Shown piece by piece: positions 16,210 through 64,000 of a DNA stretch of 64,000 nucleotides. How positions within the stretch are numbered: the first letter of the stretch is position 1; the number at the start of each line of letters is the position of its first letter. The notes beneath the pieces were generated by a model. It was not told where the DNA came from and searched no databases. It worked only from the letters and a program-made list of their open reading frames with translations. Location: positions 545,715-609,714 of the forward strand of contig CAJINV010000005.1 in the NCBI GenBank assembly GCA_905178155.1, given 5' to 3'. This DNA comes from Amoebophrya sp. A120 (Eukaryota; Protista; Dinoflagellata). The position numbers and the translations under genes are program-made.

Positions 16210-18405
16210 TTATACCAGCCCATCCCGAATGCTTCCCCACTTTTTGAACCCTTTCGGCACGTTTACCCCTTCGGCGATCTCCTCGCAGCGCAGCGGCAGC
16301 GGCATGTTTTTGCAGCGGTATTACAATGAAAAACGCCCCCCACCCCAGAATTTGCAAAAGTTTCTGATGCAAAGTTTCGCAATGAAAACTTTTTGTCTTG
16401 CATGAAAGGATTAGGAGTCTTTCTGGTGCAGAGTTTACATCTAGGCTCGCAAGGTATCTCTTGCATTAGAGATTCGGCTGGTGCAAGGCTCTTTGCAATC
16501 CAAATTTGAGCTCTTCAGGATGGAAAATAATTTGTGATGCTGATACATGCAAGACGGGGAATGTTTCTATTGGAAAGGTTTGCAATGCAACTGCTGCCAA
16601 GTTCTGGGGTGCGGGCATTTTTCACTGTAATAAGCGGCGCCGGCTCTTCTCGATCATGTCCGGCGTCATGGTTTCCAAGGTGAACCGTATCAAAAGTAAA
16701 AGTGTCTGGGTCTGGAAACTTGTGATGCTGGGTGGGTGGCGTCTCATGATGAGGCTACAGATGCTGGCTCAGCATGACAAGTTTCTGAGCTCCTAGGTGT
16801 TGCCTATTCTGCATGACAAACTGCGCTTCTGCATCACAGAAAAACGGAGCTCTTGGGTAACGTGCATCACAGATTTAAGGGTCATGCCAGACAAGCATGA
16901 CAAACATGAATTCTTCCTGACCCAGACATTTTTACATTTGATAAACCGGTCCAGGTTGTCATACGCCAGTCCCTTCCGGTGCGTGTTGGAGTTGGGCGTG
17001 TGGGAGCCGTTGATCTTCGTCGGCTTGCTCCACTGCGCATAACAGAGCCTGCAGCGAAGCTCTGGCCACCCATTGTGGTCGATCAGCTCGTAGTACTGTG
17101 GATTTGTAAACAATTCCATCAGATACTCGGGCTCTTCGATCTTCCCGTCGTAATCCCACTGCGTCTTCGGGATTGGCCTTCCGTAGCAATCGATCGGCTT
17201 CAGGGAGAAAAGATCAATCTCCTCTTCCTCCACATCCTCGCAAATGGTTGACATGTTGTTTCCACCATGACCGCGAAACGCCGCGCCCTGAGCAAACTGC
17301 TGCTGGTTCATTGCGGATGCGGAGCTCGGCCAGGCGGACGAATGATACGAAGTTGCGGAGGAGTGGCTGTTATAGCTGACCTCGGACGACATCGTGGTGA
17401 AAAGCATGTCTGAATCAAAGCAATAAATTTGAGATAGTTCTGTATGTTATTTACGCAACTCTATAGCGCGAAGCGCTGAGCAAAGCATCGGGATTGAGAA
17501 GCCACGACAAGCGATCACATGCTTCTACGCAGCAAACGAAACTATGAAGGTACATCCATTGTTTTATTGCGTTTCAACGCAAAGAAAAACTGACCATGTG
17601 TACTAGCTGCGCTAAATCGTATATGTAGGAGACGTTCGGCGGTGTCCGAGCTGAAAGTGAACAAGTTTTGAAGATCTTTTGACCCAGACCTGCACACTAT
17701 CTCCATAAAACGCGTGTCGTCATCGTAACCGGAGTAGCAACTGGCGTTGCTTGACCCACCTCCGCCATTCGACGTCGTGAAACGTTTCTCCTCTTTAACC
17801 GGGCGCGGCACGAAGGACCGGTCGACCTCCTGCGCTGCGATGGCGCCACCGTCCGTGGGTTTGCAGACCGTTCCGAACTTGTCCCGGTAGTTCATGCCGT
17901 CAGTGGGGAAGGGGATCGCCCCCTGCTCGATTTTCTCGAGATATTTGTTTTTCAGTTCGTAGGATTGCGTCTGGACGTTCGACCGGTGCTTCGAAGCGAC
18001 CAGGTGGTCGTTTCCGGCTTGTTTATTACACAATAAACAATACACCTGCGATAGTACGAAGAGAGCAGAAGTTTGACCGTTTCCTGGTGGAGAGGACACA
18101 GCGTCCACTCGGTGTTTCTTTGTTCCAGAACAAACACGTTGATGGTGGATACATTTACCTAGCGTTCAATGTCGACATGGCAAAAATTCCAAGAAAAGTT
18201 CAAGCGCTCATCCAATAGATACGTGCGCCTGCCACGTGCTGCTCCACCGGTTTTCGAAGCAGTACGGCATGGCGATGATCCGCCATTTTTCCGGGACGTG
18301 GGTATCGTCGGGTTTGGAGCAAAACTTCTTTCCCAAATGGTCCACGACGAGAATCTCCTGCTGGTTCAGGTGGTTCAAATCGAAAAATGTTGCGTCGTCC
18401 ACCAT
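16210..18405 (-). CDS. Two-module CxxC..H..H zinc-finger-like protein, tandem paralogue of 19450-22360, with two introners
   Basis: Motifs MVDDATFFDLNHLN, CLLCNK..H..H, IPFPTDGMNYRDKFG, KPIDCYGRPIP and CRLC..H..H. After removing both elements the C-terminus reads LDRFTLETMTPDMIEKSRRRCKNMPLPLRCEEIAEGVNVPKGF, which aligns to the paralogue. Confidence 0.8.
16319..16632. mobile_element. Introner, family D, 314 bp, TSD AGCGG
   Basis: TIR TATTACARTGAAAAAYGCCC...ACCCCAGAA. AGCGG at 16314-18 and 16633-37. Removal gives SRRR-CKNMP in frame. Confidence 0.93.
16688..16943. mobile_element. Introner, family B (subfamily B2), 256 bp, TSD AACCG
   Basis: TIR TATCAAAWGTAAAARTGTCTGGGTC. AACCG at 16683-87 and 16944-48. 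Removal gives LDRF-TLETM in frame. Highly similar to 47475-47726. Confidence 0.95.
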
Positions 18406-19449
18406 GGTAAAGGCGGTACTAGTGGGACCACCTCCGAAGCGGAGGTCGGTTTACCTGCAAGAACGGGACGATGTGATAAAACGGGACGATAGCCACGTCT
18501 TGACGGCTTCTGCAGGAACGTGGCGGAAACCTCGGCGTTCTCCTGCTGCACACGTCCGTCGAAAATCTAAGTACCTCCGTAAGTGAATTTACTTAAAGTG
18601 AACAAAAGCACTTTGGCTTTATTTGTCGTTGGAGAGATTTCAGTTACTTCGTTCAATTTGGAGTAGAACAGCTTTACAACGAAAGAAGTAGTAGCAACTC
18701 GAAAAACATCATAAAAATATTCAAGAAAATCGGCGATTTTCATCAGTGGTGTGTACATGTAGTCGATCTAGATGAAGTACAAGTCTAGCGTGTATCATCT
18801 CTACTTGCTCCAAGCGTGAATATTGCTATTGTGTAGCAATAACAAGAACGGTAGACCTGTATGATCCAGAACCAAGATCCATATCCAGCAATAGCCCCGG
18901 AGAAGAAAAATCCGTTGCAAACGATCATTAAGAACCACAACTAGAAGGATCTAGGAAGAGACCCGTATGCAGATCAGACACGGCTGATCTTGGTCTTACT
19001 TTCCATTCACAGCGGTACCAGTAGCATCAACGGAGTCTACTTTCAGTGGATCAGTAGCATTAGCATGAGCTTCCACATCAAAACGCTGGCCACCACGACG
19101 AACTCCTCCATGTAGCTTAGGTGCAATCTTCCATCTATTCCACAAACTATTTTTCTTCATATACCGTGGGCAAAGAACATAAATGGAACCCGCAAACGAA
19201 AAAGCACTGGAGTGCGCGCTCACAACAAAAGCAGGAAATTTCATAATTGAGTGCTCGCTCTTATTCGAGGAGAGAAGCAGATCATGATGAATATAAACGG
19301 CTTCGATATTTCCATTTTTCCGCATGATGAGGTAATGTCAGTCCGATGCGTGCTGCCAACACGTGAGGAGGAAGAGGACGATGTTCGGTGAGGATATCAT
19401 CGATACCATGTGTGTCGAGCGCTTGCGCGGAGCGACTCTCAGTTAACAT

Positions 19450-22360
19450 TCAGCACTGCTCAACATCACTATCTTCAACATCGGAGAAGTGAACTCGCAA
19501 AGATGTTTCGGGAGAATGCTCCTTGATGGGATGTCGCTTCTGGGTTTTGGCTTTCTCGTACTCGTTCTCCGCATAAAGATCGCTTCGTCCTGCCGTGTCT
19601 TGGTCTTCGCTCTCACCCAACATCCTGCTGCGCTTTTTCTCCTTGTTTTTGTCTTTTTTCCTGGTTCTGGTTGTATTCCTGGAGCTGCTGATCTCTACCT
19701 CTACGGCGTCCCGTCTGGATCTCTGCTTTCCTCGTCTCTCTCCCTCGGAGGGTGGCGAGGACTCGTCTGATGAGGATGTCTCAAGAAGAAAGCTACAGCC
19801 GCAATCGCCGGCCTCTCGTGCCTTGTTGCCGCTCCTGCCATCTCCACCCGCACCCGCGGCATTCGACATCTGGGCTGAGCTGCTGCCTGGTGACTCCAGC
19901 GACTTCTCAAGGAGCATGGAGGCCCCGTCGCTGCCAACGAAACTCGCGTCGCCATTACAAAAGTGGTTCCTCAGCCGTTGCACAGCCTCTGCAAGCTTCT
20001 CGACCTGAGGAAGAGTGATCATTTTCTGCGGTTCCTTTCTACCAACCCTCTTCAGCCACTTCGCAACCCCCTCTGGCGTCCATTTTTCTCGTTCTTTGGC
20101 AAGGTCGTCGCTCGCGTCCTGTAAGTCTTCCCTGGCGCGCGCGAGCTTCTTCTCGAGCTTGAGCGTTTTAAGAACATGCTTGTGATTCTCTGCCACTACC
20201 TGGGATTTCTTTTCCCCCACATCAAAAAGCATCTGCTGCTTCTCTTCAAGCTTCTCATGTGCCTTGTCGAGCTTTTTTTCCGCTATTTCCAGTTTGTCCT
20301 GCGCCGCGTTTCGCTCCTTTCGCAAATCGGCATTCTCAGCTCGAAGCCTCTGCAATTCTTCTTGGCCCACCAACGGTTGTCCTCTTTGTCGGTACTGCGT
20401 ATGATCTTGTTGCTGGGAGAAAGCAGCTGTATTTCTGTTGTGGACTTGTTGAGTACGAGACGGAGGTGCTGGCGTTGTTTGAACTGTGATAGAAGATTTT
20501 GGAAGAGAAAATTGAGCATGAAACTATTATCACGCTCATGCGGATGGCGAAGTGTTAAAGTCTCGCTAGCCGATATGGAGTGAAGAACGACACTACCAGG
20601 GAACCTCATTGTTGATCATGAAGCTGTAGCTGAACTAAAGCCGATTAATCTGAGCGCATGAATCACGGCCGTGAAAGCGCCCTTACCTGTAGTTTCGGAG
20701 TGGGATGAACAGCTCGACGCAGCACTGCTCTCCACATCGTTCGGTACGACTGACGCTGGCGCCGGACGGCACAGCAGCTGTGGGCCACCAACAGACCTAC
20801 TGGTGGCCATGCTCTGTCCGCCGGTAATACTACTGTTGGAAAAGGGCGGAGCGTCGCCTCGGCGCCGTATTGGATAATTCCCGGCTTGCGAATACCCGAC
20901 AGGAACATTAACTCCTTCCACCAGCTCCGGAAGCGGCCTGGGCATCCCTTCGCAATTCCGGACGCTTTCTGCAATCTCCTGTTCCGTCATGACTTGCATC
21001 CGGTACTTTTTTACAGCGTCGCCCGCCCGGTAGACCGCGTCCTTATGCTTTTTACCGTCCGGCGTATGTGCGTGCGTGATTTTCGTCGGCGGCTGGGGCA
21101 TGTATTCCATGCAGAGCACACAGCGTAGCTGCGCATACCCGTGGAAGGCGAAGAGCTCGTAGCGCTCAGGGTGGTTGTAGATTTCGAGAAGGTATTCTGG
21201 GTGCTCAACTTTCGGGTTCGGTAGATATCGCCATGCGATGTCCGGCGGAATGGGTCTGCCGAATCGGTCGAGGGGCCGCAGCTTTTGCAACTCTCGGTCT
21301 GGTGGGATCATATTGGGTCTCTGACCAGCTGCACCTGAAGCGCCGCTTCCGAAATAGGGTCTTACCTGTGTAGTTTCTGTCGCAGCACTACAACTGCTGT
21401 AGGACCTGGCACTACTGCAAGAGCTGCCTCCTCCTGCACCTCCGTAGAAAAGTGAACGCTGACCGGCGTCGCTCCGCCCGTACACACTGTAGGCCGACTT
21501 CGGGACGTTGTTCGCTTCTCCGCCAAGCGCGATCCCCTCGTCGTCCGTTTCCCTCTCGCTTTCACTATCGCCGAGAAGGGTACAGGACGCAGCAGCGGAT
21601 TGGCTTCTAGTTCTAGGGCTGCTGCAGCTGCTGGCACCGCTACTGCTCGCCCCAAGAGGTCCCGCTCTACTGCAAGAGGTATTTTTCATGCGAGCACCGC
21701 CTAAATCAGGCTTTGGCTGCGGCGGGAAAGCGTCCGGGTGCGTGGACCGGTCCACGACCGATCCGTACCGATCACGGTAATTCAGTCCATCTGTGGGGAA
21801 CGGGATCTCGCCGCTTTCGAGCTTCCTGCGGTACTCGTTGCGGAGCTCTGCCCCTGCCCAGGGGCGGCGGCGGCGGTGCTCCTGCGCAACAACGTGCTCG
21901 CTCGTTGCGATCTTGTTACAGATCAGACACCGGATCTGGTCGTAGCTCTGCTCGAAAACGTTCACGTAGGCCCAGGGCTCCGCCGGGATAAGCCACTTGT
22001 TGGGTGCCATCGTCTCATCGGGGATGAGGTCGGTGAAAATCCAAGGATAAAACTGTGCATAGTGTAAACTAATTGTCTTTGGCGGAAAACAGCATAGCAT
22101 GACAAACGAACCTGTCATTCATGACAGCGAAAAGTTTCCAAGCTCACGCACTATGTGAAAACACTCATGCGACTCACTAGCCTATGCCTACGACGCATGT
22201 CCAGCATGACAAGTGTAAATGTCATGCACTTATGCACTGCTTTTTGTTTTTCTTGCATAGTGAAGGGGGTCCCGTTTATATCTGGAATCCAGCAGTTCTC
22301 GCGGTTCAGGTCTGCGAGATTGAACTTCGGCGGTTCATCAGTGCCCAGATCGTCTGCCAT
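19450..22360 (-). CDS. Two-module zinc-finger-like protein with C-terminal coiled coil, paralogue of 16210-18405
   Basis: MADDLG start at 22360. One introner, the 500-aa ORF 20616-22118, then a GT-AG intron probably joining ORF 19450-20373. Confidence 0.78.
22038..22259. mobile_element. Older degenerate introner, family F-like, 222 bp, TSD GTGAA
   Basis: GTGAA at 22033-37 and 22260-64. Ends AATCCAAGGATAAAA and (reverse complement) TATGCAAGAAAAACA. Internal GCATGACAA motifs. Removal gives NGTPFT-DLIPDE in frame. Confidence 0.85.
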
Positions 22361-23128: not shown

Positions 23129-24859
23129 TCATCTCAGAGCACTTCTTGGATCTTTTCCCCCTCGTGCCGCCCCTGCTTTTATCAAAGCTTTTTCCTCTGC
23201 AGTAGGAACCCACTTACGCACACACAGGCAGCTTCCGTCTGACAGCGTCCCCTCAAATGTGTTCTCTTCTTGCCGCTGCGGCAGAAGGTTTTCTTTCTCT
23301 TCATCGGACCTTCCTCTTCTGGCAGTTTTTGAACCTTCGCCTACCCCTACGCCATGCTGCGATTTGGGGCCGTATTTGATTTCGTTCTGATTCACATCGA
23401 ATGTACGACTAAGGAATGGCGCGACGCTGGATTTGGTCACATCGGTGGCGATTTTGTTTTTTCCAGTGACGCTCGAAGACAGCGGCTTCAAATCGGCAGA
23501 GAACTCCTGTGCGGGGAGCTGTTTAGAAGAAGTAGGTCGCTTTGTCACCGCTGGAGTGGTGCGAGCAACCTGATCCGCAGCCGAAAGGTTAAGAGCCGCG
23601 CTTACTTGGTCCGACTGATTTCTCCGCATCATGGCGCTTCTAGTACCGCCGTCGTGATTCGCCGATGAAGTAGCAGTTGCACTCGTCCGACTGTTCGTTC
23701 TCGAGAACTCCGAGCTAGCTGTCGCAGAGATTTCCGCTTCATCTCCCTGCGTTACAGCATTTTTCGTTCCGCTGTAGTACAACCCGGCTGAAGATCCGCG
23801 GTTTTTTCGATCCGCATGCAGGTGCACCTGTCGTGGCCGTTTCTGCTCCAGTAACGTCGGTTCTGTCTGCTGAAACGGCTCGAGCTTTCGACTCGCTCCG
23901 GCAGAGATCTGCTTCTGCTCCATTAAGCTTTTCGCGACGGAGTGCTCGAAATCTGGGTCTGGTGCGTCAACTCTTGTCTTGCGCGCCCCAGATTCGGGTA
24001 AAGCAGCAAACCCGGCTGCACGGTAAATGTCGTTTTCCTCATTTTCAAGTCCGTATTCGTTGTACACATCCTGCACCCATTTCCGCTTCGCTTTCACGAA
24101 GTCCCGCAAGCTCGCGCCGGCCGGGGCCTTGTGGTCGAGCGGATGGCTTTGTTGGGTCTTTTGCGCTTGATGACCGGCTATGAAATGCAAAAGCGTCATC
24201 TGGGTCTGGAAGGTTGGAACTTGTCATGCTAAATCTGAATGATGCAAAAATCTGTGTTGCGTGAGTGCCAAAAGCTGTCCACTTTTGACCAAGTTGAGAG
24301 GGAGTTTCTCATGCAGGAAAGGCATGATAGAGACCTCGAATAATCTGTCATGCTGGGTCTCGCATTCCAGACCTCATGGGTCATGGAAAACCTGCATCAC
24401 AAATCTTGCATTCTTCCTGACCCAGACATTTTTACGGTTGATACCGGCGCTCGAAAGCCTTCCTCGCTTGTGCTGCTGCAAAAAGAATTCGCCCCGGGCG
24501 CCGATTTTCCCCGCCGGGTCCAGTTCGTGGGGAAACTTTTGACCGGTGTCACCAGCACTCGGAGGTTTTTTGTCAGCGCCGGTGATGTGGTTTGTATTGT
24601 TGGGTTCGAATTTCGCAGAAACGTCTTGGAGCGGATTTTCGCTTGTGGGTTTATTGGAGCTGAGGCAGATCTTCTCGACAATGCCCGTCTTGGACAACTC
24701 GTTCCCTTCCCAAATCCGCACGGATTCCAGCCTTCCGCCCGGGGCACGTACACAACCGACCCAGTTGCCTTGCGAGAGATCCACTACTGGGGACGAGGTC
24801 GAGGTTGGGTCGAAGCGCTTGGCGGCTTCGCCCTGATAATTTTCCGAGGGAGCACCCAT
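23129..24859 (-). CDS. Hypothetical low-complexity protein with one introner; 3' end uncertain
   Basis: ORFs 24374-24859 and 23129-24199 fuse in frame (LSSAG-HQAQK) on element removal. Confidence 0.7.
24179..24443. mobile_element. Introner, family B body with family-A-type left end, 265 bp, TSD CCGGC
   Basis: CCGGC at 24174-78 and 24444-48. Body highly similar to 25803-26064. Left end TATGAAATGCAAAAGC. Confidence 0.94.
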
Positions 24860-25401: not shown

Positions 25402-28400
25402 TCAAGCCATCGACGACGCAGTGGCCGCGTTTGTCCCGCCCGCCGATTCGTCGTCAGGCTCCGATATCATCGTATCCAGGTCCATCGGCACCAAAGGCGT
25501 CTCCGTTTTCCCGCGCTCGTCCAACGTCAGCTCCCCATTGCAGGTTTCCAACACCTGCGCGTCCACTTTCTTCACGAACGTCTCAAAAGTATGAAATGCA
25601 AAAGCATCGTACTAGTATAAATCGCATGACAAATTCCCTCAGCATGAAAAATGGAATTTATAATGCGGATTTAGGTTAGGAGGGAGATTTGTGATGCATG
25701 ATTGCGAATACTACGAGTACGATACTTTTGCACAGGATAAAAAGCCCGACACGCCAACTCGTCCGCCGGCTCCTCGCAGTCCTCGTCAACATCCAAAACC
25801 GATATCAACTGTAAAAATGTCTGGGTCTGGAAGAATGCAACTTGTCATGCTAAACCTGAATGATGCAAAAATCTGTGTTGCGTGAGTGCCAAAAGCTGTC
25901 CGCTTTTGACCAAGTTGCGAGGGAGTTTCTCATGCAGGAGAGGCATGATAGAGACCTCAAAGAATCTGCCATGCTGGGTCTCGCATTCCAGACCTCATTG
26001 TTCATGGAAAACCTGCATCACAAATCTTGCATTCTTCCAGACCCAGACATTTTTACATTTGATAACCGACTCGCCGCAACCGTGGATGATGCCGTCTTTC
26101 AAAAGTTGCGGGTCGGTTTTCCGGATAAACGTCGCCTCCAGCGCCCGGCAGCTCCCGGCGAGCTGGTGGATTTCATTCCTCGCCTTGGCGTAGGCCGTGC
26201 AGGCCTGCTTCACGGTCTCGTGGACCGGGACCGCCCGGTCGTACATGTTGATGCTCTTCATTGCGACGTCCACTGTGTGCGGGTCCGGGAAGTCGCCACG
26301 GTCCCGGATCGCGCTGATCTCCGCTGCAGTCAAACGCAGCTCTTCGTACTTCTTCAGCGCGGGGGCGGCGAGGGATTTCGCGGACGGTTTCGGGACTGTG
26401 TGCGAGATTTGCGTTTTGGAGGTCGTCACGTCAACATCACAAGCTTCGCATGTTGTGTGCAACGTGCTATTGATTGGATTTTGGTGTTGATGTACAGTAC
26501 TCGATGTGTCCCTCACCTCTAACGAGTATTAAGTTTAGACATGAAGATCGATAAAGAAAACAAAAGGTGTGTTTTTCTTTTTGCAAGGCAAATAGCCCTT
26601 TTACCTCCGGGCGTCTCGCCTTCCGCTTCCTCCTCTTCCATTTCATCCGCATGCTCCTCTGCATCCTGCTCCGCGGCCTGTTGGTTAACACTTTTCCCAG
26701 GTTCGGGGACCGGTTTGGGGTGATCCAGCTTGTACTCCAACTTTGCCCGCTCTGGATTCATCTTCATTTCTACGGGCGCGAAATCGCGCTTCACATCCTC
26801 GACCGCCTCTTTATCGATCTCATCCGACTTCCGCTGGGCGGCCGCGTGGTGCTTGTGGTGGCCGTGATGCTGATTATGGTTGTACTGCTGGTCTCCGCCT
26901 GGCTGCTGCTTCGCTGTTGACCCAGAAGCTGCCTGCTGTGCCGCGGCATCCTGTGCCGCAGTATCAAATGTAAAAATGTCTGGGTCTGGAAGATTGCCAG
27001 GTTTGTCATGCACATTTTGCATGACTCCTGATGTCTGTGATGCATGCCCTAGCATCACAGATTTTGTGAGGGCTTCCTGATGCCTATACCGCATGACAAA
27101 TGCTCTGTCCGTGTAGCAAAACTTGGACTCTCTTTGCTGCTCATGCAATACAGATTTTTTTAGAATCCAAAATCAGCATGACAAGTTGGATTCTTCCAGA
27201 CCCAGACACTTTTACAGTTGATACGCAGCCTTGTGCGACGAAGAAGACATGATGGACATCAGCCCGACGGGGTTTATATCCTGTGCAAAAGTATCGTACT
27301 CGTATAAATGCATTACAAGTTTCCTCAGCATGAGAAATAAAATTTGTAATGCTGATTTACCTTAAGAAAAAGATTTGTAATGCATGATTGCAATACGAGT
27401 ACGATACTTTTGCACAGGATAGTTTAGCAGCGCCAGAGTATCTTTGAAATGCGCAAAGAAGTTGTGCCAGTTCGCTAGGGGGCCGCTGGCGGTTTTTTCT
27501 TTGGCCTTGTCTGCGTCTGGCGGTGGCTTTGGCTTTGCTGCTGGCGGGGGTTTGGCTTTTGTAGCATCAGCAGGAGTGGGCGGTGTGGGACCAGCAGCCG
27601 CTGGGGCTTCGTTGGCAGCGAAAGAAGTGGTGCGGGATGTAGGCTGCTTCACCTGGAGCCCGATATCCAGGAATTGTGTCACATTCAACTGCATCGGGCC
27701 GTTATCCTGACGTTGTTCCTGCAGCGCAAGAGACGGTGGCTTCCGTTTTCTTGCGCGGCCTTTACTTCCAGTATCCGGATGATGTTGTCCATTCGCACCA
27801 CGATGCTTTGCCTTTTTTCGTTTATTTGCCTTTCGCGCCGAAGCCTTCTCGTTCGCATCTGGTTCATCGCTTCTGGCGTCCTGCTGCTCCTCGTTGCCAA
27901 CTACAGGTTTTTTCGCTTTTGTGCTTGGTCTTGCTGCGGCGATACTACCGTCCGCAGCTTCAGTTGCACTTCGTTTTCCCAAGACCGCATCTTTCGCTGC
28001 CGTTCCCGCGCCCTCCTCCTCCTGCTCTCTTCTGGCTTTGTTCAATACTTTCAGCGCGGAGTCCAGTTCCGTTACGAACGGATCTGTCTCCTCCCTCGTC
28101 TGCGCGTCGTACTCGTCGAATTCGTCCATGACCTCCTGTTTTCCCTCCTCCGTCAGCCCCGGCACGTTTTTCAACACGTTCCAGGCCGCCTCCCGTGCGG
28201 TTTTCCGGAGAATGTCCGGGCCGAGGCGGGCCAGCATGCTGTGATCCAGTTGGCCCATCAGCCGCGCGGAAGACAGCGTTTCCAACGCCTTCGCGCCGCC
28301 GTTCGAAACGAGCGTCTCGACGTCGATCCTTTCTCCCTTCTTCATCATCTTGGTTAGGGGTTTCAGGGTCCCAGCATCTAACCCGAGGACCGGCATCTGC

Positions 28401-28639: not shown

Positions 28640-28899
28640 GGCTGTGTGATGAGAAGCTACGAGAAGATGACGTCACAACCTGCGAGAACTACGACGCGTC
28701 TTTATGTAACGACATGGACATTCATACAAAAAATTAGAATTGTTCGCTGATCTGTAACGATCGATGGATCAAATTCAGATCAGCTCGATATTCATATTCC
28801 TGAGACAGAATGACACTCAGCTCCAGGAGAAACGAATCGGAGACGAAGCCAAATATTGATCGATTGTCCCAAACATCATTATTCGTCCTTAGACGTGTA

Positions 28900-45469: not shown

Positions 45470-45918
45470 AAAAGAAACGCTGATGGTGCGAATATTCCTG
45501 CGTCTACCTGGGCCTAACTGCGTCGCGAAGATTATTCTTGTTGTACTTGTATTCTTCCCTCATTCACCACATATTGATGATCTCTCTTCCGTATTTACCC
45601 CCGTCGATGCAGGAGCTTCAGGTATGGCGTTTCTATATTTTATCACGTGGGCCTGGGAACGCTCTTCTTTTTGGGAAGCCCGTTGGCGCCTGGCATGAAA
45701 GCGCCCGGCAGCATATTTTATTTATCATCGGTCGTAGAAGTCTATCATGACGCTGGATTAGGATTCGGTGGACTGCAACCTTTTGCAGATTGGCAATCAC
45801 TTAAAATTTTCGAAGTAGGACTGTTTCGTATGATACATTAGCGCTGCTTTGTTTCATTATCGCAGCCACCGGCAGTGGGCTTTGATGTTTTCCACATCCC
45901 ACACCAAACACCCTCCAT

Positions 45919-48884
45919 TCAAGTCTTCGTAAAAATCACCGGGTCGAGCGCTATTTTCGACCGTTCCAATTGCCGTCTCCTCGTTGCTTCTTGCCGCCGA
46001 TACTCCTTCGGCAGCAGGTCAAACGGCAGATTTTGCCACCAGTGCCGGTGGTCGTACAGGTGATTCCGCGTTGGCCGACGGAACCATCCGGGCTTTCCTC
46101 CACCTCCCGAGGATTGACCACCCGCCCTGTTCAGCGACAACAAGGCGCCCTCGGTGAACACACTCGCACGCGTCCGATGGCTCCCACGAAAAGCCGCGCC
46201 CGCATTTGCGTCGGAGTAGTTGTAGCTGCAGCTTGCGGTTGTTCCGTGGGTATTGTATCCACAAGCCCCCGGCGGATAGCTTGATTTCCCACTGAGAATC
46301 GCGTCAATTCGCATTTGCAGCTCCGTCTTCCTGGTGGCCGCTTTGTTCAGGGTATTCGCAGATGAGCCGGAGGTTGTGCACCCCTGTTTGAAAGATGTTC
46401 CGCTGTTCTCGTCCGCAGCTTCTGCCTCTTCCTCCAAACTCGGAAGGGGGTCGAGATATGGATGCCGCCGAATCTCGTCTTATCCAAGAAAAAAACATTG
46501 TAGGTGTATACAATACTTTTTTGGAAGAACAACATTACAAATTTGTCTGGCATGACAGCAAAAACCTGTCATGCGCAGATAGTACGCGAAAACGCCCCTT
46601 AATGGACGCTGCGACGCATGCCAAGCATGACAGACGCAATCATCTTGCATGTGGAGCATCACAAATTTACACTAACAGCGTTTTTTTCTTGGATACGTCT
46701 TCGTCGTCATTCAGAGCATCGGCGGAAGCTGTACCGGGGTCCGTTGTAGCGTTTGTCCCTGGAGGACCCGAAGTTCCTTTCGGACTCGTTCCGGAGGCTG
46801 GCTGCACGGACTGCCGGAAGGATGACCCTCCAGGGCCAACGGAAATGCGTTCGCCCGTCCGCTTCGCTTGCTCGGCCGTGCGCTTGCGGAGAAGGAGTTC
46901 GCGCCTAGAAAATGAAAAAGCATGATGACGCCCTTTTTGCGCTTCAACAATTAGAAGTGTATGAGCATGTTGCGGAAAAACTGTTACACCGGCCGGGAAA
47001 TGGAAAAGATCATTAGTTACAATTCAAATTCTACCTCTCCAACTTCTGCTTCTGTTTCCACTGCTTCTCGAGTTTCGCCAGGATTTTTTGTCGCAGCCGC
47101 CGGTCCGTTTTCGGGGAGTGGTGCAAGTGTCGCAAGCGCACGACTATGGTGCTCTCAACTGTTACATTCTCAGCTGTTACATAAATTTGTGATGCTAAAC
47201 CGACCGAAACCACGCATAAATTTGTGATGCAAGAATGGCAAAACTGAAAGGGGGAAGATTGCGCCTTTTGCATGACAGATTTGGCACAGATTCTCAGCCT
47301 GTTTGGGCCTTCCAGAATTTGTCATGCGCAGCAGCTTGATCGCGTCGAATCTGATTGCAGTTTTGCATGACAAATCGTGTAACAGTTGAGAATGTAACGC
47401 TTGAGAACGCCATAACGACTGAATTCACCGGATCGTACGTGTTCACCAAGTTCAAGTTGCCCGTGGGCAGCAGTTATCAAATGCAAATATGTCTGGGTCT
47501 GGTAACTTGTGATGCTGGGCGGCGTCTCATGATGAGGCCACAAGTGCTGGCTCAGCATGACAAGTTTCTGAGCTTCTATGTGTTGCCTATTCTGCATGAC
47601 AAACTGCGTTTCTGCATCACAGAAAAATGGAGCTTTTGGGTAACGTGCATGACAGATTTAAGAGTCATGCCAGACAAGCATGACAAACATGCATTCTTCC
47701 CGACACAGACATTTTTGCAATTGATAGCAGTCGTGACAGCTTCTCGCGCGGGTCGAACTGGTCCCGCTCGAACTCCAAGTCGCCCAGGATTTCCGCAAGG
47801 GTCTCCCGCCTGGATTCTTGCGTGGTAGTATGCTACTTACTCGTGTGGCTCAAAATCAAACAGCCGTTTTTCAAGAGCATGAAACGTAAGGAGCAATTGT
47901 GCTGTCAACATTGTACTCAGAACTGCCATCACAAGTTGCACTTACTTCTCATCAGAATCTGTGTCCGAGTTGTCGTAGGGGTCCCAAACCTCGTCCTCCA
48001 TGGAGGCGTGTTTTTTCAGTGCGTTCTGACCCAGCGTCGCGCTCACGCCGTCATCCCTCGTTCGCAAGCGTTCCAGGTCCGTCGCGTGGAATGTCGTGCT
48101 GCGACGGTAGTTGGCTACTGTGCAGAGCAATGGAGCATTGAAACAAATCACGCACAGCGACAGATTGGTTCATACCTTCGCAACAGGGAGAGAACATAGA
48201 CATACAAAGGATTATATGTACCAAACAGGATCATGTACCACGCGAGACGTTCGCGGGCGGCGCAGGTGTAGAAGCAGCGGCTCCCTCTCCCTTACCCGAT
48301 GCTGCAGATGCCTCCCCGGATTTCGTTTTTCCAACGCCGATCTGTTTGTTCGTCACCCCCGTGCGCATTTTGAGCTTATCCGCGAAAGCTCGCGCCATGA
48401 CCTGGGCCCGCGGTGACATGGATAATAATGTTGGCTGCTTGGTACAGGCGCTGCTTGGAAGGGAAAACTGCTTTGCAACGCCGACGAGAGCGCGTTCCTC
48501 ATCCTGGTCATGATTCCCACCCTGCAGTGATGCAGAGGCGGTAATTGCGAACTGAGGTTTGCCCACTGGTTGCAGCTGCGACGAAGTTGCAGCCGCGCTG
48601 TACGACCCAGTGAACAGGGTCGGGGAGGTCTGCAAGTGCCCGGTGCTTGTGCAGTTTTTGCCGATGGCGCTGTTGGTGATGGTAGAGCTCGTCAAGCAGG
48701 ATGAGTTGTCCAACCGCCAGGAGGAGGTAAGCCTCCTTGGCCCCGCGGCATCACCAAGCGGCACACTGCTCGTACCCCCGGCTGTCGAGTTCGAGGTCCG
48801 GCGCTGCGACGGCGCCGAGGGCTGGTACCCGGAGATACTGGGGGTGGCATTTGTGAAGCTGAAGGTCGGTAGTTGAGACGACAT
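45919..48884 (-). CDS. Multi-exon hypothetical protein with three TIR elements and conventional introns
   Basis: Joins KLSRL-LPTGN, VVMA-TIVVRL, KLER-RELLLRK (GT-AG) and DDED-EIRRHPY..LEEEAE all stay in frame. Confidence 0.75.
46481..46695. mobile_element. Introner, family F, 215 bp, TSD CGTCT
   Basis: TIR TATCCAAGAAAAAAA. CGTCT at 46476-80 and 46696-700. In-frame join. Confidence 0.93.
47152..47408 (-). mobile_element. TIR element forming a canonical GT-AG intron, family C, 257 bp
   Basis: About 40-bp imperfect TIR (TCTCAA..GTTACATTCTCARCTGTTACA...TTTGTSATGC). Minus-strand ends GTTCTCAAG...TTGAGAG. The frame is supported by the next GT-AG junction. Confidence 0.82.
47475..47726. mobile_element. 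Introner, family B2, 252 bp, TSD GCAGT
   Basis: GCAGT at 47470-74 and 47727-31. Highly similar to 16688-16943. In-frame join. Confidence 0.95.
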
Positions 48885-49039
48885 GCGCGCGCGAGTAGCT
48901 GTTACAGCTTCTGTAGGGGAAACGCGAAGGGTAACGCAAACAACGGCGACCGTTTCAGTGAATAACCACACACCAATGTGGGCACTAAGGAGTACAACTA
49001 AATGTATGCAAAACCAAAAGCAGAGCTGCTAAGCATTTA

Positions 49040-56547: not shown

Positions 56548-56657
56548 TTTGAAAACGAATCAACGACGACCAAAAACTGACGAACGGGAACGCGGCTAAC
56601 AGATAAAGAAGGAAATGATCAACGCCAACAAGAAAGAAAAATCTAAATCGTTCACAT

Positions 56658-57600
56658 TCATTTTAGTAGCAAACTGTTCGGATCATTCAAGAGCGCTGGG
56701 GCTAGCAGTACCTCCGGCAGTGCACCTGAACTTCCAGTTACACGTCCCACGGACGCGCTCCTGTTGACGAGGGCCTTTGCCTTTTCTCTTCGCAACAAAA
56801 TCTCCGGTTTTCGTTTCGGTTTGACCAAACTCAATTTGTGAAAAGTTTCCTCGAGTGCTGCCAGCTCGGGAAGCTCCGGCCCGTCGCTCTCATCCTCTGT
56901 CAGCGAGATTCCCTTTGCTGCTACGTGCGGAATCAGGCAGCAAGATGTGAAGATCGCAAGATGAAATAGAGCTGCGCTGCGCGAGCCACTGAGGAAACTA
57001 GTCGAGATGTCTTTTCTGCGCCTTGCAACCTCGCGGCCGGAAAAATGCGCCCGTGCGCCGTCTTTTCGCTTCCATTGCGTCATTCTGCTAAAACGCCCGC
57101 GTGTCTGAGACCGCGTGGGGACGCAATGATAATCTTCAATGTTCTTATGCAGTTGCTGCAGCAACCTGGTTGTCTCAACAGAAAGGAACGGCAAAAATGC
57201 AAACAAATCTTCAATCTGCAAAAGCAAGAAAAGGATCTTCTACTTGCTTTCCTGTACTCTACGCAAGAATCTACCAATGATCTAATCCTAAGGCAAGAGA
57301 AAACGAAGTAGCGATGACCTGGGGCGGATTGCGTAACGTAGAAGGAAAGAAAAACATATGAACCACTCGACTTTTTGAACTGCTCTGCCCGTCACTCCTA
57401 AGTAAAGATCGTTCTTTCGCTGGCATGCTGCGGCTCGCACTGATCCTGATGATCTTCCAAGAACGATCCGACCTTCGCTGGCAATGATCACAATCGAGTG
57501 CGACATCATATAGTCCAACGAAGATTCCAGATTGCTGAGTGCTTCGGACAGCCCTCCTGGGTCATCGAAGATAAACGTTCGCTGCGCATGAGGAAGATCC
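56658..57600 (-). CDS. Hypothetical protein, exon structure uncertain
   Basis: 189-aa ORF with a TTTTGCAG acceptor near 57218 and an upstream open stretch. Confidence 0.4.
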
Positions 57601-58403
57601 GGAGCAATTCAGGAAAAACGACAGCAACTAACATCGATACTCATGTCGACATGACGACCCGGAAGATTATCTTCCGGGCCAACAAATGAAAGTGAAACAG
57701 CTCCAGCTGGTCCCGCGGCTGTGTTGTCGGTTCTTGTAATGATTATAAAAAATCAGCTTTTATTAGCGATGTCTCCGAATTGTACAGAAAATGTGCTTGC
57801 AACATTCGTCGAATGCCAAAAAACGCTTGTTCAGCCAGAACTTTTTTCCCATTTTTGAAACTACAAAATGATAAGGCGTTTTCACGAAAATCTCAGATCT
57901 TTGCTTTGTCTTCTGACCTCTCAAGGTGCTTCGATAGTCGGCCCTGCAGCTGATCACAACCGTAGAGACTTCTATCATGAGATGAAGATGCTAGAAAATA
58001 ATGCGGCCAATGGTGCCTCATTTTGTTTTCCACTGTTGCTCCCCGAAAAAGTCAAAAATTGAAACTACTCCGTATGGATAGTTTTTCTTCCTTATTCTCG
58101 CTCCGCGGGCGGAATCGGCGAAACTGGAAAAATCCACGATACCAAATTCTGTGTTTGTAAAAAATCGTAAAACACCCTAACGTTCTACTCACTGATTCGA
58201 AACAAGTAGTGTAGGCAGCCGCGACTAGGACTGCTGTCGTGCCGAATAATTCTACATTTGAAAAAGAAGCAGGTCGCTGGAACTCTTACATTCAACAAAA
58301 TCTTACATTTACTTCGCTTCTTGCACCCCTAAAAAAGTAGTATATTTTTGTCCACGTCGTGGTCTAACACTGGTACTTATCATCTGTTTCTACCACAGCA
58401 CCA

Positions 58404-60613
58404 CTAGTCCGTCGTAGTCTGTTCGACCCTCTCCTCCGTTTGCGCCGCTTGTCGTTCCTGCAGCAGCGCGACGATGAAGGCCGTATCTGCTGTCCGGATG
58501 CGCACGGATTGGTCTTGCAGCGTTGCGACAAAGTGCGGCGACAGGTCAAAGCCGATGTAGCAGTCACGGTCGGGATGCGTGAAGTTCGCTGCAGTGCCGG
58601 CCTCCCGCAGAATGGTCGTAAAAACGCAGACCTTCGTCGCCAGCGGGGTGACTTTTTCCGCAATTTTGCAAAACCGCTCCTGGTCGCCGCGAAACAGAAA
58701 CTGCGCGTCGAGCCGGTCCAACCGCGCGCTCAGGCTTGCCCGCTGCCGCTCCACGGCTGCGAGGACACGGCTTTCGAACCGCCGGACAATCAGCGGGAGA
58801 AGGCAGTTTTTGACCAAGAGTTCCGCCAACTCGCACGGACAGGTCGTGCTGGCTGCGTTGTACTTGGAAGAAGTACTAGTAGAGGTATTTTCATCTCGAC
58901 GCTGGTGGAGTGATGCGAGAAGCGCTTGGTACAGATCGTTCCCCGTGATGGAAAGGCTTTCATCATTGGAGTTGTTACGGAGGTCGTGGCTCTGTCCTGG
59001 ACTCGAGTATGCGTCGCCGCGCAGCAAGACCACTAAACCAACTGTAAAATTCTCTATGAAAACGAAATCTCTTGTCACAGTCACATCCGAGACGTTTTGT
59101 AAGGCGTTTTGCCTTACAAAACGTCTCTGATGTGACTGTGACAAGAGATTTCGTTTTCATATTCTCCACCAAGTCGAGGATGTGAAGCAGAAAACGCCGC
59201 CACAACACCTCGGCTTCCACCTGGCACCGCTCACCGGAGAGAACGTGCCGCGGCTCCTCGTGGCCGAGGGCGTCGCCGTCCGTTCGGGGGAGCGGGAGGG
59301 GGGCGATGTCGACCAAGAAACGGAAACCAGCCATCTCTGCAGTTATTTCCTGCTCCGCGTCGTCTCTATAGTTTGCCTGCTTCAGATACGTGCCGACAGA
59401 AACCGGCGCCTTTTCGCGCTGCTCGTCGTCCAACTTTCGTGGGAACGCATGCATCAGCCGGTGCGCCATCAAATCGCCGGCGGCGTTGCAAAAACCTGGG
59501 ATACCAAGCACAGTTTGTTAACCGTACAAGAGTTCGTAGGATCATTCATAGTAGACCAAAAAGATACACTGTCACAGAAAATGGCCACACAATAACCGTA
59601 AACGAATCCATAGGAAACAGATAAAATAAGTAATAGATACTGTGCACTGCTTCAACAGTCGGAGCTGCCAGGCGTTGATTGGAAGTGGACATGTTCATCG
59701 GAAGCAGGTCTTGCTTCGTGCAAAAGTCTCGTAAGGCGCCCGCGAGACGCAAACCGTTGTGAAAGCTGAAGTTGTGCCTCCAAAAGTGCACTTCTGCAAG
59801 CTTGTCGCCGTACACAGGTCGCTTCGCCCTGTCCGAAAGGTTTACGACAAGCCTGCCGACGACGTCGTCCTCGTTGGCAACAACGACCAGGGCCGGACGT
59901 GCCCGAAAGCGGGGATCGCCCGGTTGTTGAAACAGCCCGAAAGGGAAGCCCTGTGCCGATACCATGCTATGCTCGGACTCGTTCAGCAGCAGGGAGGCCT
60001 TGACCAGAAACCCGGCGACCGCGCGGGACGTCGTCGTACCGGGTGTTTTCCTCTCCCGGTCGTGCATCGCCTGCTGGGGAATCCGGATGGCAGTCACCGG
60101 CTGCGTATGTTGTACTGTGTTCATATGGTTTCGGTTTTGATGTTGCACACCAGGCTGCTGCGTAACTTCGTCCTGGAAGAAGTCGTTTCTCCCACAGTCC
60201 AATTTCCCCTGCAACTCCCACGCGCGCCAGCTCGTCAAGTCCGAGACCCGCGTGCCCACGCCGAGGCAAAACGCCGCATCGTTGCTCAGCTGGGGTGCGG
60301 TACAGCACAGGAGACAAAATTCGCTGACGTGTTGCGCGAGCTGCGCCCGCCCGCGGAGACTCGCAATTTTCAGACTGCGATCCCTCCAGAGAAACAGCGC
60401 GGTCATGCAAAGGTCGCGGAGGAAGCACGCCGGAAGCCGGGTGCGCCGCGCCTGCCGCGCTGGTTTTTGGAGGGGACCCGAGTGAGTCGTGAAGTGGACG
60501 ACACCTGGAGGTGCTGCTTCCGCTAGAGGAGCCCCGGACGTCGAGATTCCACTGCTTTCCTCCGTGCCCTCGAAGCTGCTCTTCGCCGTGGATTCCGTGC
60601 TGGTGCTATTCAT
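58404..60613 (-). CDS. Hypothetical protein with a hairpin introner
   Basis: ORFs 59546-60613, 58975-59511 and 58404-59144. The last two fuse as DLVEN-FTVGL. Confidence 0.72.
59055..59161. mobile_element. Hairpin introner, 107 bp, TSD TTCTC
   Basis: 51-bp arms with one mismatch and a 5-nt loop GTTTT. TTCTC at 59050-54 and 59162-66. Confidence 0.97.
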
Positions 60614-60841
60614 CGAGGGATAGCTGCAGTGTGTTTGTATAGAATCAGTATGTGAAGAAACTGAATCATCTCATCTACGCGCTTTTACAGCGTCTTCAAA
60701 TCTCTTCATGCATTCACATGATGCATGACGTTCATACGGTGGTAGAAGCAACTCAAATGTCGTGGCGGGTACTTTATCAGCAAGAGAAAAACAACATGTG
60801 TGTTCGCCTCTAGGTGGGCGAGCAAGAGAAAAACAAAAATT

Positions 60842-63495
60842 CTACGGATCCTCCACCGCAGCCAAGTTGTCCACCGCACCCAAGTCGTCGGTTATCGCGA
60901 CACCGGTGTGCAACACGAGTGCGAGGCCTTCCATTACGGACCTGGCTTCTGGCGCGTCGAGCATCACGTTGACGCAGTGACGCAAAAGACGCGCGCTCTG
61001 CCCTCGTTGTGCTTCAGGAAAAAATGATGTTGGCAGAGGATTATTTCGGTTTTGCCCTTCGCCTGCACTAGATCCGTTTTCTTCTGGTCGTGAATTTATC
61101 TGCTGCAACCCTGTTTCCCAGTTCCTTTCTGCAATTGGCCACCGGAAATCTGCCGCGTCACCCACCTTCTCCTGCTTTTGGTTTATTGTGTTGTTGCGCG
61201 TGTTAGTTGTTTGCGTTCTTGCGGTGACCGTAGTAATTGCAGGTCCTTTCTTGTCTCCACGAGGCTGTCGTTCCTTGGATATCTTCTGCTTTTCACCTCT
61301 TCCTCTGCTTTGGTAACGATCGGTCATTTCGCTTCCCGCCCGCACTGCCATTTTCGCCGTTTGCAGGGTGCGCGGATCGTGGTAGTTTTCGAAAAAGCCG
61401 AGGTCGTCTTCGATACTTTCCTCGCTGTGGAGAACGTCCTCTTTGTTCTCGTTGTCGTCTTTCGAAATCGGGCGTCGGTGCGATAGATGTGGATGAACAG
61501 AAGCTCTATCTCCAGCATTAATATGTTGATCTTTGCCAAAGCAGTACCCCATCTTCCGGCACAGCAGCTCCCACAAACTACTGGGAACCTCTAACGCGGG
61601 AAGCAAGCCGGGAAACGCGCAGAAGGAGACACTCATGTCTAGTTCGATCGCGGCCAGAATGTAGATCGCTACCGCGTGGGTCTGCAGGCGCTCCATGTTC
61701 TGCCTTTGGCGTTTTTTTATGGCGAGGAGAGACGCGGGGGACCGGTTTGAAAAGTGCGCCTTGGAGCTGCTCCTGCGTCGTTCGCGCTGCTTTCCTTCGC
61801 CGCCCACCGCACCGGCCTCAGCGGGACGAAGATGATCTTCAGCATCAGGACCTTCTTGAGAAGAAGAAGATGAGCAGGAAAAGTCGTGCAATTCATGATC
61901 TAAATCCAGCTCCGTCGCACCCAGCCGGTAGAGAAAGGAGCGAAATTTCAACTTGCCCAGCGGGTCCTCGATGTCGCCCTTGGTATCCTGTGCAAAAGTA
62001 TCGTAGTCGTACTAATTGCAATCGTGCATGACAAACCTGGTTTCTCAGCAAAGTCAGCATTACAAATTCCATTTTTCCTTCTGGAAAAATTTGTAATGCG
62101 ATTTATACTAGTACGATACTTTTGCAGTTCATACTTGGCGACGTTCACCAAATGCGGGTGCAAGGGGAGTTTGATCAGCCGGTAGGTGGTCGTCAGAAAC
62201 TTCTTGCAGTGGTTGAAACCCAAGATCGCCTTGGTCAGCGCGTCTTCGAAATCCGTTTCGACCGCAGCTCGCTGCTCGTACGCGGTCTCCAGACGCGCAG
62301 TGAATATCAGAAGGAAAAATCCCCCCACCCCATACTCAAACGCAGACTTGTGGCCACAAATCAGCTTTGTCATGCTAGAAGGGAAAAGATGCGGACTGTA
62401 GTGCTGGTTGGCGTGGGAAAGCCTTGCACCTTCAGCATGACAGGGGGCAGCTGGAAGTGGGAAACAGCATGACAAATTGCCTGCAAACGAGGCCACAGCT
62501 GCGTCTCTTGGCCTTCTAGCATTACAAGTCGATTTGTGTACTCAAATACAGCATCACAAACTTCTTCGTTTTCGATATGGGGAGGGGGGATTTTTCCTTT
62601 TGATAGTGAAGTCCTGCTCTTCATCCGCTACTTCCGGCGGAAGAAAATCACGGGGCGCGGGGGGAACCTCCCCTGTGGTCGTGTCGCCAGCTTGTTTGTC
62701 GTTGTTCCGTTGAACTTCTACGACTCCAGCGTCCGCAGCAACACCTGACGCCGCATCCTCGCCATCGGTCTCCTCGTCGAGCAGGAGATTTTCATTTTCC
62801 TCTACGAGCGCCCCTGATCGCACAGTTTTCGTAGTCTTCGTCGCGGCCACGTTAAGAAATGAACCCTGCTCCTGTCTTGTCGGCGTCGGCACATGCTGCA
62901 GACTCGCGGACAGACTGCCACTGTGCGACGACGAGGCGCTGTTGGTCGCGGAGGTCAAAATCCCCAAGTGGCTCGAATCGGCAAACGAAGAAAGATCATC
63001 GACAGCGGCTGCTTGCTGCCTGCTCGCGGTCAGGCTGTGCGATGCGGAGGACGAAGAGGAGCTACTTGAGGATGAGGAGCTGCAGCTCGCACTATAAGAG
63101 CAATCGTTCTTGGTCTCCTTGGTTGCGCTCTCTGTTATTTCTGCTGTAGCTGTGGTCTTTCCATTACGAATAAATGTTCCACCACATTGCTTTCGGTTTG
63201 TTTTCGCCCTTTGCTGATTCTGCACAATCTGCTCTAATTCATCTCCGACGGCGCGCAGGAACGTCGCCGTCTGACTCTCCGCGAGAGAAGAGGACACAGA
63301 GCGCAGCTCGGAAGAAGAAAACGTTGCGGCTGCGGGGGTCGAAGACCGCGATCCCGACGAACCTTGGAGGTCGTCCCGGTCGGAGGTTATGGAGTTCTTC
63401 AACACGTTGATCTTCTGACGGTTGCGCTGCGGTGCGGCCGGTGGTTCGCGGTCCAAAGCAGTAGCAGGAACACCAACAGCACCATTGATAGTCAT
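60842..63495 (-). CDS. Hypothetical protein with two introners
   Basis: In-frame joins EQDFT-ARLET and NVAK-GDIEDPLGKLKFR. Confidence 0.8.
61984..62133. mobile_element. Introner, family A, 150 bp, opposite orientation to 25590, TSD CTTGG
   Basis: Ends TATCCTGTGCAAAAGTATCGTA and TACGATACTTTTGCAGTTCATA. CTTGG at 61979-83 and 62134-38. Confidence 0.95.
62305..62605. mobile_element. Introner, family E (D-related), 301 bp, TSD GTGAA
   Basis: TIR TATCARAAGGAAAAATCCCCCC.CCCCATA. GTGAA at 62300-04 and 62606-10. In-frame join. Confidence 0.95.
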
Positions 63496-63521
63496 ATCTA
63501 CAATTTTATCGCAAGACTCAC

Positions 63522-63985: not shown

Positions 63986-64000
63986 ACGGGTGGGGGGGGG

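What the first reader, a model, noticed from the sequence alone, without database searches (positions are those of the whole stretch)
16319..62605. 14 TAT...ATA transposon-like inserts with exact 5-bp TSDs whose precise removal restores coding genes without GT-AG signals
Seen: elements at 16319, 16688, 22038, 24179, 25590, 25803, 26962, 27277, 42568, 46481, 47475, 59055, 61984 and 62305 all interrupt ORFs and have TIRs and an exact 5-bp direct repeat. Deleting element plus one repeat restores the frame in 14 of 14 cases. Sense-strand TSDs are CCGCT, CGGTT, TTCAC, GCCGG, CTTTT, TCGGT, CTGCG, TAAAC, AACAA, AGACG, ACTGC, GAGAA, CCAAG and TTCAC. I checked all six sliding registers of each and none gives GT-AG, GC-AG or AT-AC, although ordinary GT-AG introns occur in the same genes. 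Established: Amoebophrya genomes carry non-canonical introns and introner elements with inverted and direct repeats, and to my knowledge their removal mechanism is unresolved. Inference: a second removal pathway guided by the TIR stem and direct repeats. It could be non-canonical RNA splicing or IES-like precise DNA excision.
Basis: partly seen in the sequence, partly recalled or inferred. Interest (0 to 1): 0.93.

Follow-up and report, generated by a model that had tools for sequence, protein, structure and literature searches.

The report
Amoebophrya transposon introns without GT-AG
Small transposon-like inserts in the genes of the marine parasite Amoebophrya A120 lack normal splice signals yet are missing exactly from its RNA-derived sequences; this intron class is already described, and the likely hairpin-guided removal machinery is still unknown.

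Summary
All 14 elements are real, with exact 5-bp direct repeats and paired ends; one starts AAT, not TAT, and there is a 15th at 47145. The window encodes proteins identical to Amoebophrya sp. A120 proteins. The ends match the TAT-N7-AAA motif published for A120 introner elements (PMC7789003), so the class is known. cDNA-type contigs skip exactly element plus one repeat at 6 of 6 elements in the second stretch laid (4 of 4 runs, one sample), in the same contigs as GT-AG introns; contig edges fit four more. A DNA-type run keeps the elements where seen, so IES-like DNA excision is unlikely. Points I did not see in print: one family is removed exactly in both orientations, in-frame GT-AG pairs 1-14 nt away are passed over, the repeats show no base preference, and unrelated families share an internal GCAT[CGT]AC motif. 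Most likely mechanism: end-guided cut-and-join on RNA, as in Euglena; an adapted spliceosome is the main rival. A reverse-transcriptase artefact is not excluded without direct RNA. This scan noted a similar insert in another dinoflagellate.

The parts
16319..16632 (.). Element, 314 nt, sense repeat CCGCT; host gene on minus strand
   Evidence: contig length compatible with exact removal; element-free paralog aligns across the site
16688..16943 (.). Element, family A, 256 nt, repeat CGGTT
   Evidence: X1 contig piece starts at 16944 as exact removal predicts; paralog
22038..22259 (.). Element, 222 nt, repeat TTCAC; one end is AAT, weakest end pairing
   Evidence: spanned by DNA-type contig 16920-24228 with no difference; no RNA join seen
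24179..24443 (.). Element, family A, 265 nt, repeat GCCGG
   Evidence: X1 contig piece ends at 24172 (exact) and not 24177 (GT-AG alternative)
25590..25739 (.). Element, family B, 150 nt, repeat CTTTT
   Evidence: no RNA join seen (tables cut)
25803..26064 (.). Element, family A, 262 nt, repeat TCGGT; 91-94% identical to 24179
   Evidence: no RNA join seen (tables cut)
26962..27223 (.). Element, family A, 262 nt, repeat CTGCG
   Evidence: X1 contig edge 26956 and 48-nt middle exon fit exact removal
27277..27421 (.). Element, family B, 145 nt, repeat TAAAC
   Evidence: X1 contig edge 27422 and 48-nt middle exon
42568..42713 (.). Element, family B, 146 nt, repeat AACAA
   Evidence: not in either stretch laid with reads
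46481..46695 (.). Element, 215 nt, repeat AGACG
   Evidence: joint 46475>46696, skip 220, 4 of 4 runs
47145..47414 (.).
   Evidence: joint 47139>47415, skip 275, 4 of 4 runs
47475..47726 (.). Element, family A, 252 nt, repeat ACTGC; 90% identical to 16688
   Evidence: joint 47468>47726, skip 257, 4 of 4 runs
59055..59161 (.). Element, 107 nt, near-perfect palindrome, repeat GAGAA
   Evidence: joint 59048>59161, skip 112, 4 of 4 runs
61984..62133 (.). Element, family B in the opposite orientation, 150 nt, repeat CCAAG; outer stem mismatched
   Evidence: joint 61978>62134, skip 155, 4 of 4 runs; orientation; fold
62305..62605 (.). Element, 301 nt, repeat TTCAC
   Evidence: joint 62298>62605, skip 306, 4 of 4 runs
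57739..63528 (-). Host gene with 3 elements and 2 GT-AG introns; the RNA joints give a 1394-codon open frame, no Pfam family
45900..49028 (-). Host gene with 3 elements and 3 GT-AG introns; the RNA joints give a 655-codon open frame

Best explanation
These are non-autonomous, transposon-like introner elements of Amoebophrya A120 that sit in coding DNA and are missing exactly (element plus one repeat copy) from RNA-derived contigs, likely because an end-guided cut-and-join pathway that does not read GT or AG removes them from the transcript. Step 1 (inferred): a DDE-type transposase acting in trans inserts the element with a 5-bp target duplication, in either orientation, at sites of any sequence; the shared end motif TAT-N7-AAA and the internal GCAT[CGT]AC repeats would be its binding sites. 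Step 2 (predicted by folding): in the transcript the two ends pair, closing the element into a long hairpin with one repeat copy on each side. Step 3 (product shown, chemistry inferred): the RNA is cut at the same offset in both repeat copies, five bases outside the element in all, and the exons are ligated. An endonuclease measuring from the paired ends plus an RNA ligase, as proposed for Euglena and diplonemid non-conventional introns, fits best. Ordinary GT-AG introns in the same transcripts go through the spliceosome. That removal happens on RNA in the cell I put at about 0.87; that it is spliceosome-independent at about 0.5.
For: Exact joints at 6 of 6 elements in window 45900-63000, each in 4 of 4 runs, beside 8 GT-AG introns in the same contigs. 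Contig edges fit exact removal at 4 more. The mean depth of bin 59033-59603 equals the spliced contig's depth times its exon share in 4 of 4 runs, so no contig holding that element was laid. Family B is removed exactly in both orientations (27277 and 61984; 79-83% identity to the family only when 61984 is reversed), so the signal is symmetric. In-frame GT/GC-AG pairs close to the exact register exist at 24179, 46481, 59055, 61984, 26962 and 27277 and are not the joins seen. The 15 repeats are 14 different sequences with no positional bias. 27 of 30 ends match TAT-N7-AAA and 29 of 30 start TAT. All 15 fold with 11-20 of the first 20 bases paired to the far end. Euglena introns use a paired motif at fixed spacing from the cuts, shown by knock-in (PMC12501133 abstract), and leave as circles (PMC11282704).
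Against: Nothing here shows the enzyme. A120 keeps all but six of 89 spliceosome proteins and U2, U4, U5, U6 (PMC7789003), and Fritillaria shows a spliceosome can adapt. In 61984, 25590, 24179 and 22038 the outermost 7-10 bases are predicted unpaired or weakly paired, yet 61984 and 24179 join exactly, so a ruler from the stem base alone is not enough; end-motif recognition or repeat matching must help. All RNA evidence is assembled cDNA from one sample, whose kind the tool only guesses to be RNA, and hairpin plus direct repeat is the known trigger for reverse-transcriptase skipping (PMC8240250). Four of the 14 (22038, 25590, 25803, 42568) have no RNA join seen. No cognate transposase could be sought, and PMC7789003 found none in A120.
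Confidence: 0.5

Rival explanations
1. An adapted U2-type spliceosome removes them. With U1 missing or diverged, a factor binding the paired ends would place both splice sites at fixed distances, giving a lariat and the same exact product.
For: Nearly complete spliceosome and no U1 found in A120 (PMC7789003). Tunicate precedent with changed U2AF and snRNA m6A (PMC13326754 abstract). Each sense 3' arm carries a U run 11-14 nt from its end, the complement of the AAA run.
Against: At least one end dinucleotide is free in every register; both orientations work; close in-frame GT-AG pairs are passed over; Fritillaria introns keep preferred ends (AG-AC, AG-AT), these do not.
Confidence: 0.35
2. The cDNA joins are reverse-transcriptase jumps across a hairpin between direct repeats. 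The mRNA would keep the element, and the genes would be dead or rescued by ribosome hopping (a 5-nt repeat always holds one whole in-frame codon).
For: This geometry makes false introns in cDNA, up to 70% of reads and over 90% in some samples (PMC8240250 passages). All data here and, as far as I read, in PMC7789003 are cDNA. Library type of X1-X4 is not on record.
Against: Retention would break 15 of 15 frames, and more than 60% of A120 introns are of non-canonical type. Exact joins also occur where the outer stem is mismatched (61984). The first in-frame stop lies 5-51 codons into the element or is absent, not right after the repeat codon as in known hopping sites (hopping features recalled).
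Confidence: 0.06
3. The polymerase skips the element during transcription, jumping from one repeat copy to the other across an extruded DNA hairpin, so no element RNA is ever made.
For: Would explain indifference to orientation and junction bases and the exact loss of one repeat; not contradicted by contigs.
Against: No precedent for Pol II that I know of (recalled); five bases are short for re-annealing; element sequence is present in RNA-type runs at other copies.
Confidence: 0.04
4. IES-like precise excision from DNA before transcription, in some life stage.
For: Paired ends plus direct repeat and exact loss of one repeat resemble ciliate IES and transposon excision (recalled). Only one DNA-type run was laid, of unknown stage, and its joints table was cut (545 rows not shown).
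Against: The DNA-type run X5 (depth 25-31 in unique bins) has one contig through the whole 22038 element and contigs running 50-56 nt into 16319 and both ends of 24179. A parasite without a separate germline nucleus would pass the deletion on and lose the elements (inference from recalled biology). X5 may be the window's own source, so it is not independent.
Confidence: 0.03

Closest known systems
Introner elements (IEs) among the non-canonical introns of Amoebophrya sp. A120 (Farhat et al. 2021, PMC7789003)
   Same: Same organism; ends TAT + 7 nt + AAA; terminal inverted repeats; 5-bp direct repeat (legend of Fig. S19); RNA-supported removal; repeated families; mechanism left open.
   Different: Nothing in kind. 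Not seen in the sections and legends I read: exact removal in both orientations, skipping of adjacent in-frame GT-AG pairs, the shared internal motif. Figures S19-S25 are not held and may show some of this.
A120 introner families of Gozashti et al. 2025 (PMC12130899)
   Same: 58 families; among the 22 rows seen are TIR DNA families of 252-260, 149, 106 (palindromic), 305 and 214-227 bp, lengths like those here; superfamily unknown.
   Different: Match is by length only; no sequences compared. Their table scores many ends as GT or AG 'co-opted'; sliding within the 5-bp repeat could produce such calls (my inference).
Non-conventional introns of Euglena and hemistasiid diplonemids (PMC12501133, PMC12621601, PMC11282704)
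   Same: No GT-AG, paired ends, direct repeats, coexistence with spliceosomal introns, proposed MITE origin, unknown enzyme.
   Different: Signature is N3-CDG ... CH'G-N5-6 with a purine starting the next exon; here TAT-N7-AAA with no junction preference. Circular products are shown there, untested here. Unrelated lineage.
Classical introners (Micromonas, Aureococcus, Polarella)
   Same: MITE-like TIR elements with target duplication that become introns on insertion.
   Different: They carry or co-opt GT/GC and AG for the spliceosome; these do not.
Non-canonical introns of Fritillaria borealis
   Same: Transposon-derived, TIR and TSD, mostly non GT-AG.
   Different: Preferred ends AG-AC/AG-AT and an adapted U2 spliceosome; here no preferred end pair.

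Membership tests
Amoebophrya A120 introner elements (PMC7789003) | In the A120 genome | tested here: met
   Two window exons are 100% identical to a protein named Amoebophrya sp. A120 and to one with a GSA120 identifier; next named relatives are A25 at 43-47%
Amoebophrya A120 introner elements (PMC7789003) | Non GT-AG boundaries | tested here: met
   15 of 15, all registers
Amoebophrya A120 introner elements (PMC7789003) | Removed in RNA-seq | tested here: met
Amoebophrya A120 introner elements (PMC7789003) | Terminal inverted repeat and 3-5 nt direct repeat | tested here: met
Amoebophrya A120 introner elements (PMC7789003) | End motif TAT, 7 variable bases, AAA | tested here: met
   27 of 30 ends; motif text
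Amoebophrya A120 introner elements (PMC7789003) | Repeated in the genome | tested here: met
   Families of 5 and 4 within the window; thousands of other contigs of the DNA-type run lie on the family A and B elements
Amoebophrya A120 introner elements (PMC7789003) | Recent gain, absent at the orthologous site | tested here: inconclusive
   A neighbouring paralog lacks both inserts and aligns across 16688 and 16319; no ortholog from another strain was obtained
MITE / non-autonomous TIR DNA transposon | Short, TIR, fixed-length target duplication, either orientation, no transposase gene | tested here: met
   107-314 nt, too short for a transposase
MITE / non-autonomous TIR DNA transposon | Autonomous partner with the same ends | not testable with these tools
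   No whole genome is held
Classical spliceosomal introners | GT/GC donor and AG acceptor from element or duplication | tested here: not met
Euglena non-conventional introns | N3-CDG ... CH'G-N5-6 signature, purine at exon start | tested here: not met
   End composition and repeat composition, read by eye against the signature
Euglena non-conventional introns | Excised as full-length circles | not testable with these tools
   No raw reads covering these loci
Ciliate-type IES | Absent from the transcribed (somatic) DNA | tested here: inconclusive
   One DNA-type run holds the elements where visible; stage unknown, joints table cut

The most novel reading that the evidence does not exclude
Amoebophrya A120 has a second, spliceosome-independent mRNA repair pathway that reads only the symmetric transposon ends and rejoins the RNA exactly, so a transposon can land anywhere in a gene, either way round, at no cost. 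It would have arisen independently of the Euglena pathway. A still bolder form, at about 0.05-0.1 in all, is that the element is never cut from RNA but skipped by the polymerase or the ribosome.
Probability: 0.45. Interest if true: 0.78.

Novelty: already known. Interest (0 to 1): 0.33.

Why it matters
The elements are published, so finding them is not new. How tens of thousands of such introns are removed is still open in the papers I could search. The window sharpens the rules a mechanism must meet: exact loss of element plus one repeat, both orientations, any junction bases, nearby GT-AG ignored, imperfect outer stem tolerated. It also gives named loci for direct-RNA, circle and lariat tests. 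A non-spliceosomal route would be a new way to process mRNA and would explain mass intron gain from transposons.

Tried and rejected
Whole genome: none held, so no genome-wide count, no transposase or ligase search. No listed holder is on record as RNA; X1-X4 are read as cDNA because they skip GT-AG introns. In one search the DNA-type run swamped the joints table (15 of 560 rows shown), so joins there come from contig edges only. Homolog searches for host genes: none for the 59639-60622 exon among longer proteins; only the A120 protein itself for 20619-22037; the full HMMER search of one exon never left the queue. Pfam: 24 of 29 exon frames had no hit, and no element-bearing gene had one. Rfam: 0 matches. 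The internal motif as a branch point or removal signal: rejected as necessary, since 59055 lacks it and joins exactly. Cryptic GT-AG use: rejected at the 6 loci tested. Paralog test of junction precision: the exact model scored best (271 against 246-262 for eight shifted models), a small margin. Literature searches listed no paper that resolves the Amoebophrya mechanism; the library lacks most subscription papers.
Full report
Observation. They are 107-314 nt and AT-richer than the window. Thirteen run TAT...ATA; 22038 starts AAT. A looser scan found a 15th at 47145-47414. A motif-plus-repeat scan gives 13 hits in the window and none in 30 of 30 shuffles. All host frames are on the minus strand. 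Removal of element plus one repeat opens the frame in 15 of 15; retention gives an in-frame stop in 13 and a frameshift in 2. No register gives GT-AG, GC-AG or AT-AC.

Organism. One exon is 100% identical to a protein with a GSA120 identifier, with Amoebophrya sp. A25 proteins as the next named hits at 43-47%. Another is 100% identical to a protein named Amoebophrya sp. A120. The window is A120 or an identical strain.

RNA. Nine runs were listed, none of the holders on record as RNA. X1-X4 (contigs, one sample, one study) were laid at 100% identity on 45900-63000. Fifteen joints were listed. Six skip 220, 275, 257, 112, 155 and 306 bases, exactly element plus five, at all 6 elements in the stretch, each in 4 of 4 runs. 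The other nine rows are eight GT-AG introns, one with two acceptors, partly in the same contigs (positions checked). These joints give open frames of 1394 and 655 codons. On 15300-28800 the joints table was swamped, but X1 contig edges fall where exact removal predicts for 16688, 24179, 26962 and 27277, and one contig's length is compatible with exact removal of 16319. Contigs show presence, not absence, and these runs may not be independent of the published data. Raw-read runs X7 and X8 did not cover the exons.

DNA. X5 has depth 25-31 in every unique bin, introns included, so I read it as DNA. One contig spans 16920-24228 through the 22038 element with no difference; others run 50-56 nt into 16319 and both ends of 24179, and 22-26 nt into five other ends, below the tool's 31-letter bar. 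The cut table means a joined DNA form is not formally excluded.

Anatomy. Five elements form family A (252-265 nt) and four family B (145-150 nt); six stand apart. Family B occurs in both orientations in minus-strand genes (61984 against 25590, 27277, 42568), and one of each orientation is removed exactly. Family A orientation calls are weaker (66-75% either way). 27 of 30 ends read TAT-N7-AAA. Positions 4-10 often differ between the two ends of one element, so the outer stem is predicted loose in 61984, 25590, 24179 and 22038. The repeats show no base preference. In-frame GT/GC-AG pairs near the exact register exist for 13 of 15 elements within the range scanned; at the six I compared with RNA the exact join is the one seen, even at 24179 where GT and AG lie one base from the element ends. 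The motif GCAT[CGT]AC occurs 52 times in 3317 nt of element (14 of 15 elements, both strands), against 21 in the other 60683 nt and a shuffle mean of 2.2, maximum 7 of 200. I picked this motif by eye from the same sequences, so the test is descriptive. Element 59055 lacks it and is still removed, so it more likely serves transposition (inference). A neighbouring paralog without elements aligns across the 16688 and 16319 sites.

Mechanism. Shown: the product (element plus one repeat gone from cDNA-type contigs) and its indifference to orientation, junction bases and nearby GT-AG. Inferred: insertion by a transposase in trans with a 5-bp duplication; recognition of the symmetric ends in the transcript; two cuts at the same offset in the repeats; ligation. 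I favour an endonuclease-plus-ligase route like that proposed for Euglena and diplonemids (0.5) over an adapted spliceosome (0.35). Reverse-transcriptase skipping (0.06), polymerase skipping (0.04) and DNA excision (0.03) remain. The skipping artefact deserves respect because hairpin plus direct repeat is its known trigger, but it cannot explain how the genes work.

What is known. PMC7789003 (passages, sections 11 and 16, supplement legends; figures not held) reports 66,565 RNA-supported introns in A120, over 60% non-canonical, introner elements with inverted repeats and 3-5 nt direct repeats, A120 ends of TAT, seven variable bases and at least three As, a 5-bp repeat in Fig. S19, no U1 found, and an open mechanism. 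PMC12130899 (passages; supplement search without files 13 and 14; 22 of 58 A120 rows) lists A120 TIR families of like lengths. PMC11282704 (parts 1-3 of 5) and PMC11453091 (passages) review this. PMC12501133 (abstract, passages) and PMC12621601 (passages, Discussion) give the euglenozoan parallels, PMC13326754 (abstract) the tunicate one, PMC8240250 (passages) the artefact. PMC12005148 (passages) reports mostly GT-AG introns and U1 in another Amoebophrya. PMC13149111 (passages) does not mention the genus. Six searches listed no paper resolving the mechanism. Unseen supplementary figures may already show the features I call unreported.

Verdict. Real, correctly observed, already known as a class and in this genome. 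The value is a tighter set of constraints on an open mechanism. Interest 0.33.

Noticed in passing
window 25799-25887 and 24199-24266 (run X7): About 200 raw RNA reads match a diverged family A end and then continue into unrelated sequence on both sides: part of an element kept in an RNA from another locus, perhaps a truncated copy that cannot be removed, or a small RNA.
   Followed up: no
window 6130-7700: Array of 39-bp repeats in both orientations, forming large inverted repeats, with two copies of the internal element motif facing each other near 6380 and 7421.
   Followed up: partly
window 15300-22300: Tandem paralogous genes with Cys/His zinc-finger-like motifs and no Pfam hit; the copy at 19453-21311 lacks the elements found in the copy at 15329-17291.
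   Followed up: partly
window 24179-24200: The left end of this family A element begins with 16 bases like the family B end at 25590, which suggests end swapping between families.
   Followed up: no
window 48114-48239: GT-AG intron with two acceptors three bases apart, used in different runs.
   Followed up: no
window 55974 and 59987: Loose contig ends of 255 or more bases with the same sequence in 4 of 4 RNA-type runs: other transcripts sharing a short exact stretch, or assembly joins.
   Followed up: no
window 40495-41447, 50827-54037, 54871-57083: Conserved genes (IF2B/IF5 domain, zinc carboxypeptidase, DAGAT) carry no element of this kind, while all 15 elements lie in genes without Pfam hits, in line with the bias reported in PMC7789003.
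   Followed up: partly
window 63490-64000: AT-rich tandem repeats of period 31 and 18-42 at the window end.
   Followed up: no
window 4000-6000, 12000-14000, 49000-50500: GC-rich stretches (62-69%); the last has no cover in the RNA-type runs.
   Followed up: no
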